Shown one piece after another: positions 3-64,000 of a DNA stretch of 64,000 bases. The stretch comes from a virus. The position numbers and the translations under genes were made by a program. Under the pieces are notes generated by a model. It was given only the letters and a program-made list of their open reading frames with translations, did not search any database and was not told the origin of the DNA. The stretch's first letter is position 1. Each line of letters opens with the position of its first letter. The stretch lies in the IMG/VR virus record IMGVR_UViG_3300029787_005452, positions 96,001-160,000 of that record, one strand, 5' to 3'.

Positions 3-1160
3 ATGCAAAATCAACCGATACAGTTTCAGCAGCCGGCACCACCTCCGCAACCAAAAGAAAATGAATTACCGCGATTTTTAAATTATTATGCAGATTATTC
101 TGGTTGCGGTCATTGGAGAATGATATGGCCTGAACAGATTATGAACGCTCATAGTAAAGCTTGTGTACACGGGACAACAGTGATGAATTTAGATGAGCGA
201 TATTATGTTCAAACGAAAGGTGTTCGTATTCAAAGACAAGCTACTCCTCAGCAATTACAATTTGTAAAGTGGTTAAGACAATTAGCAGATAAAAATAATT
301 TTAGATTAATTTATGAAATTGATGATATATGTTTTTCTGAAGATATACCAGACTATAACAAATATAAAACGGCATTTACCGACCCTACTATTAGACAATC
401 AGCTCAAGAAATGATGTCTATATGCGATGAAATTACTGTTACATGCCCGTTTATGAGAGATTATTATAGAGATAAAACTGGTAATAAAAATGTTACAGTT
501 GTACCAAATTTTATGCCAAAGTTTTGGATTGACAGATTCTATGATAATTCTAGATCAATGGAAAGCTATGATCGTAATAAAAGAAAACCGAGAATTTTAT
601 ATGCAGGCTCCGGAGCTCATTTTGATGTTGAACAAAGAGTTAAATTTAAAGATGATTTCCACCATGTTAATGATGTTATAAGAAAAACAGTTGATAAGTT
701 TCAATGGGTGTTTTTAGGGGCTCACCCTTTACCGTTGATAGATTTAGTTCGGTCTGGTAAAGTAGAATTCCATCCATGGAAAAAACTATATGAATACGGT
801 AAAGGTTTATATGATTTAAATGTTAATATGTTAGTTGCGCCTTTACAAGATAATATTTTTAACCGTTCGAAATCAGATTTAAAATATATAGAATCTTGTG
901 CATTAGGATTACCCATTGCTTGTCAAGATATGTGTACATATGAAAACGCTCCTATAAAATTTAAAACCGGAGATGAAATGATTAATCAAATAGAGCACAC
1001 TCTGCAAGATAGAAAACGTTATAAAGCTCTTTGCAGAAAAGGTCGTCAATATGCCGATACAAGGTGGTTGGAAGATGATAAAAATATTGATTGTTATTTA
1101 GAATTATATCAATATGGAGTTAATGACTCAAAAAGGGTTAATTTATCTAGATATAATTAG
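3..1160 (+). CDS. Glycosyltransferase, GT-B (GT4-like); 5' end may lie outside window
   Basis: C-terminal FNRSKSDLKYIESCALGLPIAC matches the KSxxK..E...G.P donor-binding motif; N-terminal YSGCGHWRMIWP and YEIDD are typical of phage GT-B proteins. Confidence 0.75.
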   Translation: MQNQPIQFQQPAPPPQPKENELPRFLNYYADYSGCGHWRMIWPEQIMNAHSKACVHGTTVMNLDERYYVQTKGVRIQRQATPQQLQFVKWLRQLADKNNFRLIYEIDDICFSEDIPDYNKYKTAFTDPTIRQSAQEMMSICDEITVTCPFMRDYYRDKTGNKNVTVVPNFMPKFWIDRFYDNSRSMESYDRNKRKPRILYAGSGAHFDVEQRVKFKDDFHHVNDVIRKTVDKFQWVFLGAHPLPLIDLVRSGKVEFHPWKKLYEYGKGLYDLNVNMLVAPLQDNIFNRSKSDLKYIESCALGLPIACQDMCTYENAPIKFKTGDEMINQIEHTLQDRKRYKALCRKGRQYADTRWLEDDKNIDCYLELYQYGVNDSKRVNLSRYN

Positions 1161-1175
1161 GAACTGTTATATAAT
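1148..1175 (+). promoter_or_regulatory. sigma70-type promoter for DNA polymerase
   Basis: TAGATA-N16-TATAAT-N6-GTG(1182). Confidence 0.6.
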
Positions 1176-1181
1176 TAATGG

Positions 1182-61690: not shown

Positions 61691-63583
61691 ATGAAAAATA
61701 AAAATACAATTTACGAAACAACAGTTAGTGAAAAGGTAGGTTTTACCTCAGGTAATGAATTTGCTTTAACAGGTAGCAATTATATTGGTTATTATAATAT
61801 TCTTGATAATAAAGCTTATGCAGGAAAATTTAATAGAGATGTACTTTTACAGCCATATGGTACTATTGAAACAAGAATTATTTTAAATAAAGATTTAAAC
61901 TTCGATAGAGTAGTTGAAGATGGAATTTTATTACCTTTTGAATTAAATGAAATTTTATTTCAACCTAATGAAATAGTTAATAAAAATACTCTTAATTTAA
62001 AACTTACTCAATTATTTGATAATTTTACTGAAATATTTAGATATGGAAAATTTCCGAGTCCTAAGATACCAGTACAATTTACCGGATTTGCTCTTTTATC
62101 ATCAGATGGTCCTGCTGCTGGTTATAGTAATACGTACATTAAATGGGTACCAACAAATACTGAATTGGTATCAGCAGCAATAGAAACTGCATCATTTGGG
62201 AATTATAATGAAACATTTAATGGTACGGATGATATTAATCTTGATATATTAAAGAATAAATTTGCAGATAAGTATACTATATTTTTATCTGCAAAAGATA
62301 CTATCTTTTCATTTGAAGTGGATGACCCGGGTATAGGCGAACAACATACAACGTTTAATTTTATTGCAAGTGCTAATGCAGTAGGCGATTATAAAAGTTT
62401 ATCATTTAATAAAATTTCTAACACAGCAAATAATAGTAGAAATACTTTATTTGTAGCTGATTCTGGTAATAATACTATTACAAAGTTAGATGTTACAAAT
62501 ATAGTTAATTTGGATAGAACTGGTATTAGAGATTTTAAATATATCGAACAAATTGGAGGATCTGGAAGCAATGAAACGAATTTTCAAAATTTAGAAAAAA
62601 TTATATACGGAGGAGATTTTATATATACATATGATGCGGGTGAAAAAGTTATAAAACAATTTACTGAAGATTTAGTTTTTATTAAAAAATATGTAAATAA
62701 TAAATTATTCGAAAATAATAAATTTGTAAATTTTGCTTATAATATTTTTAATAGAAATTTGTATATATTATTTGCTAATAAAAAAATAGTCGTGGTTGAA
62801 ACTGAATATTTTCAAACAATAGATGAATATACTCTGGATCAAAATAATTTTAATGATGAAAAATTAGAAAAAATAATCTTTTCTGAAAATAATTCTAACA
62901 TATACTATATACAATCCAATTTCGGAGTTTATAAATATCTTTTAAGCCGTAAAAATAAATTAATAGCTGAATGGCAATTGCTAAAAAATGTAGCTTTTTC
63001 ACCTACATGGGAACAAACTAATTCTATATATAACTTTAATCTAGATAATTGGGAAGGGTTTATGCAAGGACCTGATAACTTTAATTATATTGATATAGAT
63101 GTTTTACCTTCTGATAACAACTTTGATAAATTAGTGTTTATGTCTAAAAGGAATATATTAGAATATTCAGAAAATGAAGAATTTTTAACATTATTCAGTA
63201 AAGATTCACCTGACCTATATAACCTTAATGAAATATTATTTGAATTCGAATACTTTAATTCAATAACTTTAAATACAGCATTGTATAAGTTATTATACAA
63301 TCATAATTTACTATCAAATAGAATATCTAAAAAGGTCTCTTTAAAATTTGATAGAGGTAGAAAAATATTTAATGATATATCACATTTGAACCCTGAAAAA
63401 AAATTAGAAATGACCTTATCTGGTACTGAAAATTTTTATGCTGGTGTTAATGAAACGATGTCCACATTAGTTTTTAACCGAATATTAAAAAGTTTTTACG
63501 ACTATCAAATAGATATATTAAAACTATTACAGGTAGAAACTATTAATTTAAAAAATCCGCCTTTATCTACTATCACCTTTTAA
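61691..63583 (+). CDS. Late structural protein with NHL/beta-propeller-like repeats
   Basis: LFVADSGNNTITKLD, EQIGGSGS, IYTYDAGEKVIKQF. Confidence 0.6.
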   Translation: MKNKNTIYETTVSEKVGFTSGNEFALTGSNYIGYYNILDNKAYAGKFNRDVLLQPYGTIETRIILNKDLNFDRVVEDGILLPFELNEILFQPNEIVNKNTLNLKLTQLFDNFTEIFRYGKFPSPKIPVQFTGFALLSSDGPAAGYSNTYIKWVPTNTELVSAAIETASFGNYNETFNGTDDINLDILKNKFADKYTIFLSAKDTIFSFEVDDPGIGEQHTTFNFIASANAVGDYKSLSFNKISNTANNSRNTLFVADSGNNTITKLDVTNIVNLDRTGIRDFKYIEQIGGSGSNETNFQNLEKIIYGGDFIYTYDAGEKVIKQFTEDLVFIKKYVNNKLFENNKFVNFAYNIFNRNLYILFANKKIVVVETEYFQTIDEYTLDQNNFNDEKLEKIIFSENNSNIYYIQSNFGVYKYLLSRKNKLIAEWQLLKNVAFSPTWEQTNSIYNFNLDNWEGFMQGPDNFNYIDIDVLPSDNNFDKLVFMSKRNILEYSENEEFLTLFSKDSPDLYNLNEILFEFEYFNSITLNTALYKLLYNHNLLSNRISKKVSLKFDRGRKIFNDISHLNPEKKLEMTLSGTENFYAGVNETMSTLVFNRILKSFYDYQIDILKLLQVETINLKNPPLSTITF

Positions 63584-63596
63584 TTAAATAATTTAT

Positions 63597-64000
63597 ATGG
63601 CAGGACAAGATCTAACAGGTAATCAAATATCGACAACATATAAGTCATTATTAAAAACTACTGATAATAATGAATTTCCAGCCTCTGGTAAAGTCAGAAT
63701 AACAGATGGTAAGGGTAATGATTCATCTCTATTCATTGCAAAAAATACTGGAGGGGCTTCAGTTTGTGGTAACTTTAGTGCAACTGGTGACGCGTCAGCA
63801 GCTAATTTAATAGCTACTACTAAAGGTACATTCGCTAATATTGAAACTACTGGAGCCGCTACTATAGGCGGCGCCGCTACTATAGCAAGTAATTTAGGTG
63901 TAAGCGGTACAACAACTTTAGCAAATGTAAATGCTGTTGCTGGTACTTTTTCTGGTAATATTATCGCATCTGGGTCCGTAACTGCTGGTGGTGATGTTAT
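63597..64000 (+). CDS. Tail fibre N-terminus, truncated by window end (absent from ORF track)
   Basis: TAAATA(63585-63590)-N6-ATG; MAGQDLTGNQISTTYKSLLKTTDN then Gly-spaced beta repeats (GAATIG, GNIIASGSVTAGG). Confidence 0.75.
   Translation, partial: MAGQDLTGNQISTTYKSLLKTTDNNEFPASGKVRITDGKGNDSSLFIAKNTGGASVCGNFSATGDASAANLIATTKGTFANIETTGAATIGGAATIASNLGVSGTTTLANVNAVAGTFSGNIIASGSVTAGGDV

What the first reader, a model, noticed from the sequence alone, without database searches (positions are those of the whole stretch)
1148..63599. Near-wholesale leaderless gene expression: two promoter classes put the start codon at about +1
Seen: nine genes are preceded by T(T/A)GAww-N16-TAwAAT-N6-8-start (starts 1182, 3768, 4453, 8950, 14235, 17129, 21637, 41938, 47423). 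Twenty-eight starts are preceded by TAAATA-N5-6-ATG (7667, 8902, 12435, 16790, 21355, 22946, 23371, 23394, 26103, 26733, 27063, 29425, 31850, 32493, 33104, 34728, 35481, 37323, 44019, 44069, 44554, 49799, 49845, 52250, 56122, 58140, 58183, 63597). I saw no Shine-Dalgarno before these starts; most other genes are coupled by overlapping or abutting stop/start. Established: a sigma70 -10 box ends about 6 nt before +1, and the T4 gp55 late promoter TATAAATA ends about 5 nt before +1. Inference: most mRNAs begin at or within 1-2 nt of AUG/GUG. This differs from T4, whose mRNAs are SD-led. It could reflect host translation habits, or let the phage suppress leadered host translation while its own mRNAs load 70S directly.
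Basis: partly seen in the sequence, partly recalled or inferred. Interest (0 to 1): 0.85.

Follow-up and report, generated by a model that had tools for sequence, protein, structure and literature searches.

The report
Phage promoters fused to start codons
In this uncultured T4-like aquatic phage, and in hundreds of its relatives, early, DNA-replication and late promoters sit so close to the start codon that about 40% of genes should be made from messages with no ribosome-binding leader, unlike T4; the DNA evidence is strong, but no RNA 5' end has been mapped.

Summary

- **Counts against chance.** The window lies in a 185-kb, 29.5% GC virus record. Genome-wide there are 81 TAAATA-N5/6-ATG sites against 30±4 in Markov-3 simulations. 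There are 25 full sigma70-type boxes 5-8 nt before a start, against 2.5±1.5.
- **Offsets.** They peak at exactly 5 nt for the late box and 6 nt for TATAAT. Each value puts +1 on the A or G of the start codon.
- **A third class.** GGAAC-N5-TATAAT-N6-start occurs 13 times against 0.07 expected. It includes the DNA polymerase gene.
- **Functional split.** Sigma70-type boxes head uvsX, gp32, primase, dUTPase and gp55. TAAATA boxes head sheath, tube, fibre and portal genes.
- **Which genes carry a box.** 94 of 227 genes do. That is 88 of 140 genes that are not coupled to an upstream gene, and 8 of 87 that are.
- **Shine-Dalgarno (SD) use.** SD cores precede 6% of genes here, against 41% in HTVC008M and 45% in a T4 sample.
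- **Relatives.** They keep box and spacing while the flanks diverge.
- **Controls.** T4 and Syn9 lack the layout. HTVC008M has a partial version.

Best reading: leaderless first cistrons followed by translational coupling. No transcript data could be obtained. This is a new variant of known kinds (T4 late promoters; leaderless Thermus phages). This scan has already noted the same layout in at least 155 other genomes.

The parts
1160..1184 (+). Class C box (GGAAC-N5-TATAAT-N6) fused to the GTG of the family-B DNA polymerase gene
3734..3770 (+). Class A: TTGATT-N16-TAAAAT-N6-ATG (125-aa ORF)
4418..4455 (+). Class A: TTGATA-N16-TATAAT-N7-ATG of uvsX; the geometry is conserved in relatives
7665..7678 (-). 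Class B: TAAATA-N5-ATG (455-aa ORF)
8900..8913 (-). Class B: TAAATA-N5-ATG (408-aa ORF); divergent from the gene at 8950
8914..8952 (+). Class A: TTGATT-N16-TATAAT-N8-ATG (glutamine amidotransferase-like gene that heads an operon)
10061..10086 (+).
12423..12437 (+). Class B: TAAATA-N6-ATG (DHH phosphoesterase-like gene)
14201..14237 (+). Class A: TTGATA-N16-TATAAT-N6-ATG of gp32-like SSB
16779..16792 (+). Class B: TAAATA-N5-ATG; this ATG is the third in-frame ATG of ORF 16748-17098
17095..17131 (+). Class A: TTGATT-N16-TAAAAT-N6-ATG (heads a sugar-nucleotide operon)
21344..21357 (+). Class B: TAAATA-N5-ATG (81-aa ORF)
21603..21639 (+). Class A: TTGAAA-N16-TATAAT-N6-GTG of the primase gene
22944..22957 (-). 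Class B: TAAATA-N5-ATG
23369..23396 (.). Two back-to-back class B boxes in a 22-nt divergent intergenic region (starts 23371 on the - strand and 23394 on the + strand)
23740..23776 (+). Class A-like: TTGATA-N16-TAAAAT-N6-ATG before a gene that abuts the upstream gene; possibly an internal promoter or chance
24517..24541 (+). Class C-like: GGAAC-N5-TACAAT-N7-ATG
26101..26149 (-). Intrinsic terminator hairpin (26149-26126), then class B TAAATA-N5-ATG (start 26103)
26731..26744 (-). Class B box before an in-frame internal ATG (26733) of the gene that starts at 27063
27061..27084 (.). Class B TAAATA-N5-ATG (27063, - strand) overlapping TAAATA-N11-ATG of the large terminase gene (27082, + strand). 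The intergenic region is 18 nt, so the terminase leader would be about 6 nt
29414..29427 (+). Class B: TAAATA-N5-ATG of the tail sheath gene; conserved in relatives down to 49% identity
31839..31852 (+). Class B: TAAATA-N5-ATG
32482..32495 (+). Class B: TAAATA-N5-ATG
33062..33106 (+). Terminator-like hairpin with a T run, then class B TAAATA-N5-ATG (tail-tube-like gene)
34716..34730 (+). Class B: TAAATA-N6-ATG
35469..35483 (+). Class B: TAAATA-N6-ATG
37311..37325 (+). Class B: TAAATA-N6-ATG
41879..41894 (-). Variant: TAAATA-N7-ATG; divergent from the gene at 41938
41904..41940 (+). Class A: TTGAAT-N16-TATAAT-N6-ATG of dUTPase
44017..44071 (.). Divergent pair of class B boxes in a 49-nt intergenic region (starts 44019 on the - strand and 44069 on the + strand)
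44543..44556 (+). Class B: TAAATA-N5-ATG (weak Pfam match to the baseplate gp6-like helical domain, below the family cut-off); the TAA of the box is the stop codon of the upstream gene
47389..47425 (+). Class A: TTGATA-N16-TATAAT-N6-ATG
48159..48176 (-). Variant: TAAATA-N9-ATG
49797..49847 (.). Divergent pair of class B boxes in a 45-nt intergenic region (starts 49799 on the - strand, tail-fibre-like, and 49845 on the + strand)
52238..52252 (+). Class B: TAAATA-N6-ATG
56120..56133 (-). Class B: TAAATA-N5-ATG
58138..58185 (.). Divergent pair of class B boxes in a 42-nt intergenic region (starts 58140 on the - strand, tail-tip-fibre domain, and 58183 on the + strand, 1168 aa)
63585..63599 (+). 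Class B: TAAATA-N6-ATG

Best explanation
Three classes of promoter box are fused directly to start codons.

1. TTGAnn-N16/17-TA(T/A)AAT is read by host sigma70 RNA polymerase. It heads early, replication and recombination genes.
2. GGAAC-N5-TATAAT has a -10 box with a fixed upstream element and usually no -35. It heads the DNA polymerase gene and a dozen others. It is probably a middle or otherwise regulated class.
3. (A/T)(A/T)TAAATA is the T4-type late box, read by the phage gp55 homologue. It heads virion genes.

The -10 hexamer ends 6 nt before the start codon and the late box ends 5 (sometimes 6) nt before it. Transcription should therefore begin on the A or G of the initiator codon, or 1 nt before it. 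That would give 5'-terminal AUG messages with no leader and no Shine-Dalgarno (SD) site. Ribosomes would load on the 5'-terminal AUG. Downstream cistrons, which overlap or abut the preceding stop codon and show no SD enrichment, would be translated by coupling or re-initiation.

Shown here: the motifs, their spacing, their statistics, the functional split, the gp55 homologue, the lack of SD sites and conservation in relatives. Inferred: the exact transcription start site, and the way ribosomes load.
For: 1. **Sharp offset peaks at the canonical distances.** TAAATA is followed by ATG at offset 5 in 54 cases and offset 6 in 27, against a background of 8-9. Of 47 TTGA..-N16/17-TA.AAT sites, 18 have a start at offset 6. 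Of 17 GGAAC..TATAAT sites, 9 do. The T4 box spans -13 to -6 (PMC2988020).
2. **Enrichment over Markov-3 simulations.** 81 against 29.7, 25 against 2.5 and 13 against 0.07.
3. **Boxes mark the heads of transcription units.** 88 of 140 uncoupled genes carry a box, against 8 of 87 coupled genes. So do 37 of 54 genes in divergent pairs, whose intergenic regions are 17-56 nt in most cases and leave no room for a leader.
4. **Terminator-box-ATG arrays** at 26149-26103 (terminator; box and start) and 33062-33106.
5. **Functional split.** Classes A and C head uvsX, gp32, primase, dUTPase, gp55 and DNA polymerase. Class B heads sheath, tube, fibre and portal genes.
6. **gp55 homologue.** E = 4e-9 to T4 and 6e-19 to HTVC008M, in conserved synteny.
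7. **No SD.** 1 of 82 class A/B starts reaches -5 kcal/mol. 6% of all genes have an SD core, against 41% in HTVC008M.
8. **Conservation.** The sheath gene in 80 IMG/VR loci (49-96% identity) keeps TAAATA-N5/6-ATG while its flanks diverge. A subclade that moved the box about 38 nt upstream gained a GGAGG site. uvsX keeps -35/-10-N6/7-ATG down to 64% identity. Over 160 loci (1.5 Mb), offsets peak at 5 and 6 (250 and 126, against about 30). Whole related records have 27-51 sites against 4-13 in controls.
9. **Negative controls.** T4 has 12 against 8 and Syn9 has 7 against 6.
Against:
- gp33 and the gp45 clamp were not found by tblastn or Pfam in this 88%-complete record. Only the clamp loader was found.
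- Loosely defined sigma70-like sites are no more frequent than in shuffled sequence (109 against 108). The promoter calls therefore rest on their position relative to start codons.
- 23 class B boxes lie 4-20 nt behind a co-directional gene, and 13 of them use the TAA of the box as that gene's stop codon. Read-through polycistronic transcripts may coexist with the leaderless ones.
- Six box-fused genes start with GTG, which works poorly on leaderless mRNA in E. coli.
- The major capsid gene has a 74-nt upstream gap with no fused box and an SD-like AAGGA.
Confidence: 0.8

Rival explanations
1. TAAATA and TATAAT at -6 to -12 are AT-rich, non-SD ribosome-binding or enhancer elements, comparable to the TAAAA-type signals of organisms that make little use of SD. 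On this reading they lie inside leadered transcripts made from promoters further upstream.
For: The genome is almost free of SD sites. The box occupies the position where a ribosome-binding site would lie. 23 class B boxes sit in short gaps behind co-directional genes. A 2.6-kb relative contig was binned with a Flavobacteriaceae MAG.
Against: Class A has a -35 element at a fixed 16-17 nt from the -10 box, which a translation signal would not need. The classes divide by gene function and timing. The box matches the gp55 late box, and gp55 is encoded. Divergent pairs with 17-50 nt between start codons have no other promoter candidates. The subclade with the box about 38 nt upstream uses a GGAGG SD site instead. 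Coupled genes lack the box. The -10 box is TATAAT, not the Bacteroidota TAnnTTTG.
Confidence: 0.07
2. The boxes are real promoters, but most protein is made from longer read-through polycistronic transcripts. Leaderless monocistronic RNAs would then be a minor species, and the tight spacing would mainly reflect genome compaction.
For: 13 boxes share their TAA with the upstream stop codon. Few terminators were found: 10 against 5.9 expected in 19 kb. Late genes form long co-directional arrays.
Against: The 37 box-fused genes in divergent pairs cannot be reached by read-through from upstream. The spacing is exact, not merely short: it is 5 nt for the late box and 6 nt for -10 boxes. It is conserved across relatives.
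Confidence: 0.1
3. The pattern is a compositional artefact. A 29.5% GC genome with TAA stop codons and short AT-rich spacers would produce TAAATA near ATG by chance.
For: TAAATA is common (496 sites). Generic sigma70-like matches are at chance level.
Against: Enrichment over simulation is about 12 SD for class B, 15 SD for class A and larger still for class C. The peak is confined to one or two offsets. The reversed-pattern controls are low in the four related records closest in layout and higher in the SD-leader clade record. T4 and Syn9 show no peak.
Confidence: 0.02

Closest known systems
Phage T4 late transcription (8-bp TATAAATA box at -13 to -6, gp55 sigma, gp33 co-activator, gp45 clamp; PMC2988020)
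   Same: Both share the TAAATA core, an AT-rich segment downstream of the box and no conserved -35. A gp55 homologue and a clamp loader are encoded. The boxes head virion genes on both strands.
   Different: Positions -13 and -12 are degenerate here: AT in 20, TA in 13 and AA in 8 of 60 boxes. The start codon sits at the predicted +1, so there is no leader and no SD. T4 shows no such peak (12 against 8). gp33 and gp45 were not found here.
Thermus phages phiYS40 and Lalka27a (most transcripts leaderless; bioRxiv 10.64898/2026.04.20.719267; review PMC3594737)
   Same: [quoted passage not shown]
   Different: The lineages are unrelated, and the Thermus host phylum commonly uses leaderless mRNA. 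Those cases were mapped experimentally. Here the phage is T4-like with a gp55-type late box, the host is unknown, and there are no RNA data.
Pelagibacter phage HTVC008M and the pelagimyophages (PMC7029224)
   Same: It is the nearest cultured relative: sheath 36% and major capsid 31% identity, with a shared csgF curli gene. It has the same TAAATA-N5-ATG layout at about 12-19 genes.
   Different: HTVC008M is rich in SD sites (41% of genes), and many of its late boxes lie about 20 nt upstream with AAGGAG leaders. The pelagimyophage paper states that late-promoter prediction was unsuccessful.
Cyanophage Syn9 (Kyanoviridae)
   Same: It is a T4-like marine phage with TAAATA-type boxes upstream of virion genes.
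   Different: Its boxes lie 20-27 nt upstream of the ATG, some followed by an SD-like GGAG(G). There is no peak at offsets 5-6.
'-10 box adjacent to the ORF' leaderless genes of Deinococcus-Thermus and Actinobacteria (PMC12340547)
   Same: Both have a -10 hexamer a few bp before the start codon, which drives transcription of leaderless mRNA.
   Different: Those are cellular genomes with high GC. Here the layout is in a low-GC phage, and it extends to a phage-specific late sigma and a GGAAC-containing class.

Membership tests
T4-type late promoter / gp55 system | Box TATAAATA with no conserved -35 element | tested here: met
   The TAAATA core is fixed by the search pattern used to define the 60 class B sites. 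The two bases upstream are AT, TA or AA in 41 of 60. There is no information content further upstream.
T4-type late promoter / gp55 system | Phage-encoded gp55 late sigma factor | tested here: met
   tblastn gives E = 4e-9 to T4 gp55 and 6e-19 to the HTVC008M late sigma. There is a weak Sigma70_r2 match. The synteny uvsY-helicase-gp55-gp47-gp46 is conserved.
T4-type late promoter / gp55 system | gp33 co-activator and gp45 sliding clamp | tested here: inconclusive
   No hit with T4, HTVC008M or Syn9 proteins, or with PF02916 or PF09116. A clamp loader (gp44 homologue) is present at window 42527-43441 (E = 4e-46). The record is 88% complete.
T4-type late promoter / gp55 system | The boxes head late (virion) genes | tested here: met
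   Sheath, tube-like, fibre-like, tail-tip and portal genes carry class B boxes, as does an ORF with a sub-threshold gp6-like match.
T4-type late promoter / gp55 system | Transcripts carry an SD-containing leader, as in T4 | tested here: not met
   Only 5-6 nt separate the box from the ATG. 1 of 60 class B starts reaches -5 kcal/mol against the anti-SD.
Sigma70-type promoter | -35 TTGACA-like and -10 TATAAT-like hexamers 16-18 nt apart | tested here: met
   22 genes have TTGnnn-N16-18-TATAAT-like boxes (mostly TTGA(a/t)(a/t)-N16). 25 sites are observed against 2.5 expected.
Leaderless mRNA | The transcript 5' end lies at, or within a few nt of, the start codon | not testable with these tools
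   This is inferred only from the box-to-start spacing.
Leaderless mRNA | No SD site, and an AUG (or GUG) initiator | tested here: met
   88 ATG and 6 GTG among 94 box-fused starts. No SD signal.
Bacteroidota-type expression signals (TTTG / TAnnTTTG promoter, no SD) | -7 box TAnnTTTG | tested here: not met
   The class A consensus is TATAAT followed by an AT-rich 6-mer, with no TTTG. Strong AAGGAGG sites exist at a few genes here and in relatives.

The most novel reading that the evidence does not exclude
This large clade of aquatic T4-like phages runs an almost SD-independent translation programme. It would combine 5'-terminal AUG loading on first cistrons with 70S re-initiation on coupled cistrons. 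The programme would serve as a takeover strategy, paired with an as yet unidentified phage function that disables SD-dependent (host) initiation. The GGAAC element would be the binding site of a new phage factor that times a middle class and competes with overlapping late boxes.
Probability: 0.12. Interest if true: 0.85.

Novelty: new variant of a known kind. Interest (0 to 1): 0.62.

Why it matters
T4 is the textbook model for phage gene expression, and its late messages carry SD-containing leaders. Here a very large, environmentally common clade of T4-like phages appears to have fused all of its promoter classes to start codons and largely abandoned SD sites. More than 595 IMG/VR contigs matched the sheath gene alone.

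- It would extend genome-wide leaderless expression from Thermus phages to gp55-type late transcription.
- It would explain why late-promoter prediction failed in pelagimyophages (PMC7029224).
- It gives a simple rule for start-codon and operon annotation in these genomes.
- It offers a testable system, HTVC008M on Pelagibacter, for studying how leaderless mRNAs are translated in streamlined marine bacteria.

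Tried and rejected
- **RNA evidence.** No other route was tried.
- **Literature.** Eight searches were run. 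None found a report of leaderless late mRNAs in T4-like phages. The Syn9 dRNA-seq paper (Doron 2016) and the phiYS40 paper are not held.
- **Translation factors.** bS21, IF3 and IF1 families are absent from the record. An HTVC008M S21 query gave no hit.
- **Clamp and gp33.** PF09116, PF02916, tblastn and two PDB sequence searches on candidate ORFs found nothing.
- **Host.** One relative contig is binned in a Flavobacteriaceae MAG, and one in an unnamed MAG. An Atlas search with an epimerase gave only viral and mixed bacterial clusters. The host stays unresolved. A Bacteroidota host was rejected as the leading idea because the early boxes are canonical TTGAnn/TATAAT and strong SD sites occur.
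- **Generic sigma70 scan.** It was at chance level, so it was not used as evidence.
- **Genome relatives.** 'relatives' mode is not available for virus records.
- **First simulation script.** It timed out and was rewritten.

Full report
**What the window is.**
The window is bases 96001-160000 of a single 185,197-bp IMG/VR virus record. The record has 29.5% GC, and CheckV estimates it at 88% complete.
- It encodes a family-B DNA polymerase, a T4-type large terminase, a tail sheath, tail-fibre and tail-tip-like proteins, plus a sub-threshold match to a baseplate gp6-like domain.
- It also encodes UvsX, a gp32-like SSB, a primase, a DnaB-like helicase and dUTPase.
- A clamp loader and a gp55 late-sigma homologue lie at genome coordinates 92635-93108. 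The gp55 homologue scores E = 4e-9 to T4 and 6e-19 to HTVC008M.
- The nearest cultured phage is Pelagibacter phage HTVC008M, with sheath 36% and major capsid 31% identity. The two share a csgF curli gene.

It is therefore a distant, uncultured T4-like myophage. The host is not established.

**Checking the observation.**
- All 28 TAAATA-N5/6-ATG sites and all 9 -35/-10-N6-8-start sites are present at the stated coordinates and strands.
- Genome-wide, ATG follows the 496 TAAATA sites at offset 5 in 54 cases and at offset 6 in 27. Other offsets have about 8-9 each.
- In 60 third-order Markov simulations the combined count is 29.7 ± 4.3, against 81 observed.
- TTGA..-N16/17-TA.AAT followed 5-8 nt later by ATG or GTG occurs 25 times, against 2.5 ± 1.5 expected.
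- Of 47 full -35/-10 pairs, 18 have a start codon at exactly offset 6.
- A generic sigma70 scan is not enriched (109 against 108 in shuffles). The signal lies in the strict pattern and its position relative to start codons, not in AT-rich hexamers as such.

**A third class.**
GGAAC-N5-TATAAT-N6/7-start occurs 13 times, against 0.07 expected. The GGAAC-to-TATAAT spacing is an invariant 5 nt. Some members also carry a TTGA -35 element. GGAAC is therefore a spacer element at about -22 to -18, and possibly a factor-binding site.

**Which genes carry boxes.**
I called 227 ORFs of at least 50 aa, which cover 97% of the genome.
- 60 carry a class B box, 22 class A and 12 class C. That makes 94 genes, or 41%.
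- Boxes mark the heads of transcription units. 88 of 140 genes that are divergent from, or more than 3 nt behind, their upstream neighbour have one, and 12 more have degenerate versions. Separately, 17 uncoupled genes without a fused box have TAAATA 7-41 nt upstream, 15 of them at N7-N13.
- Only 8 of 87 genes that overlap or abut the upstream stop codon have one.
- Of 54 genes in head-to-head pairs, 37 are box-fused. Most of their intergenic regions are only 17-56 nt, so nothing but the two boxes fits.
- In the window, 37 of 71 genes are box-fused, 25 are coupled and 9 are neither.
- Coupled genes mostly use ATGA (-4, 20 cases) or TAATG (-1, 12 cases) overlaps.
- Two arrays of terminator hairpin, box and ATG are visible, at 26149-26103 (terminator; box and start) and at 33062-33106 (read from the sequence).

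**Why these are promoters whose +1 falls on the start codon.**
- The T4 late box spans -13 to -6 (PMC2988020). TAAATA therefore ends at -6, and five more bases reach +1.
- A sigma70 -10 hexamer spans -12 to -7, so six more bases reach +1. This is established knowledge.
- The observed modal spacings are 5 nt for the late box and 6 nt for both TATAAT classes. Independent classes, each at its own canonical distance, converge on the initiator A or G. A translation signal would not do this.
- The classes also divide by function. Classes A and C head uvsX, gp32, primase, dUTPase, gp55 and DNA polymerase. Class B heads sheath, tube-like, fibre and portal genes.
- The spacer after the late box is at least 80% AT in 59 of 60 cases. 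T4 likewise shows an AT preponderance downstream of its late box.

**Shine-Dalgarno (SD) usage.**
- Duplex energies against the anti-SD reach -5 kcal/mol at 1 of 82 class A/B starts. The figure is 15% for genes with no box or box-like motif, most of them operon-internal, and 17% for random in-gene positions.
- An SD core (GGAG, GAGG or AGGA) at -5 to -15 precedes 6% of genes here. The figure is 41% in HTVC008M, 45% in a 13-kb T4 sample and 16% in 50 kb of Syn9.
- A few internal genes do have strong sites, for example AAAGGAGGA before window 38630.

**Comparative evidence.**
- The sheath query matched more than 595 IMG/VR stretches. In the best 80 loci (49-96% identity) the upstream region diverges completely except for (A/T)TAAATA-N5/6-ATG.
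- One subclade (L055-57, L060, L061, L068, L082, L084) has lost the fused box and instead has an SD-like GGAG(G) about 12 nt before the ATG; in five of these loci a TATAAAT box lies about 38 nt upstream. When a leader exists, an SD site appears.
- uvsX orthologues down to 64% identity keep TTGAnn-N17-TATAAT-N6/7-ATG. One locus carries a GGAAC-type box instead. The most distant loci are coupled to the upstream gene.
- Over 160 related loci (1.52 Mb, de-replicated contexts), offsets peak at 5 and 6 for TAAATA (250 and 126, against about 30). They peak at 6 for the sigma70 pattern (79) and at 6-7 for the GGAAC pattern (25 and 15).
- Five whole related records have 27-51 exact N5 sites, against 4-13 for the reversed-pattern control.
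- T4 (12 against 8) and Syn9 (7 against 6) show nothing. HTVC008M (19 against 7) shows a partial version.
- In Syn9 the boxes lie 20-27 nt upstream of the ATG. In HTVC008M leaderless and AAGGAG-leadered late genes coexist.

**What is not shown.**
- No transcript 5' end was available.
- gp33 and the clamp were not identified.
- Thirteen late boxes share their TAA with the upstream stop codon, so read-through transcripts may coexist with leaderless ones.
- The major capsid gene (genome coordinate 19699) has a 74-nt upstream gap with no fused box and an SD-like AAGGA.
- No phage IF1, IF3 or bS21 gene was found, so nothing here supports an active switch of the translation machinery.
- The host is unresolved. 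The curli link points to pelagimyophage-like phages. One short relative contig sits in a Flavobacteriaceae MAG. The canonical early boxes and the occasional strong SD sites argue against a Bacteroidota-type expression system.

**Comparison with what is known.**
Genome-wide leaderless transcription is documented for Thermus phages phiYS40 and Lalka27a. '-10 box adjacent to the ORF' genes are known in Deinococcus-Thermus. The T4 late system is well known. I found no paper that describes gp55-type late boxes fused to start codons. The pelagimyophage survey states that its late-promoter prediction failed. This is therefore a new variant of known kinds.

This scan has already noted the same layout in at least 155 other genomes, including follow-up reports on relatives and on HTVC008M. 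Those notes agree with this report, but they are not independent evidence.

**Verdict.**
The leaderless reading is well supported by many-sided DNA evidence (confidence 0.8) but awaits 5'-end mapping. 'Near-wholesale' should read 'about 40% of genes, and about two-thirds of the genes not coupled to an upstream gene'. The host-takeover idea is untested.

Noticed in passing
window 26731-26744 (- strand), inside the gene 26173-27063: A perfect late box with N5 spacing precedes an in-frame internal ATG at 26733. It could yield a 186-aa N-terminally truncated isoform of the 296-aa protein, which itself starts at a boxed ATG at 27063.
   Followed up: partly
window 23372-23393: The 22-nt intergenic region holds two back-to-back late boxes in a near-palindrome (TTATTTATAAATATTTAT). 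The two polymerases could not occupy both at once.
   Followed up: no
G000:C1 27723/27762, 173038/173071 and 177523/177558 (outside the window): Three divergent pairs place a GGAAC-class promoter on one strand directly against a late box on the other, reading GTTCC(C)TAAATA. This may be a middle-to-late switch element.
   Followed up: partly
G000:C1 19625-19701 (outside the window; locus L169): The major capsid gene is an exception. It has a 74-nt upstream gap with no fused box and an SD-like TAAGGA 12 nt before the ATG. The nearest late boxes lie before upstream genes, fused at 17943 and 10 and 22 nt before 18761.
   Followed up: partly
window 38612-38632: A strong AAAGGAGGA Shine-Dalgarno site lies 7 nt before an operon-internal ATG. 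Similar sites occur at genome coordinates 55643 (-13 kcal/mol) and 22781. The host ribosome therefore probably recognises SD sites, even though the phage rarely uses them.
   Followed up: partly
loci L055-L057, L060, L061, L068, L082, L084: A subclade of relatives has lost the fused late box before its sheath gene and has an SD-like GGAG(G) about 12 nt before the ATG; in five of the eight loci a TATAAAT box lies about 38 nt upstream. This is a natural leaderless-to-leadered switch at one orthologous gene.
   Followed up: partly
locus L086 (DLPY01000007.1): A 2.6-kb contig encoding a sheath protein 73% identical to this one is binned in a Flavobacteriaceae MAG (UBA7446). It is either a host hint or a low-GC binning artefact.
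   Followed up: no
G000:C1 61388-61813 (outside the window): A csgF curli-assembly homologue (39% identity to the HTVC008M CsgF) starts at a boxed ATG at 61813. The curli cluster links this phage to marine pelagimyophages.
   Followed up: partly
G000:C1 183557-183643 and 185123-185197: ARAGORN finds only two tRNA genes, tRNA-Leu(TAA) and tRNA-Asn(GTT). The second runs to the end of the record.
   Followed up: no
window 5537-6286, 8950-9621 and 17129-20219: Early operons encode a QueC-like enzyme, a glutamine amidotransferase-like protein, three nucleotide-sugar epimerase or dehydratase paralogues and a heptose-phosphate adenylyltransferase-like protein. This suggests DNA or surface-sugar modification.
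   Followed up: no
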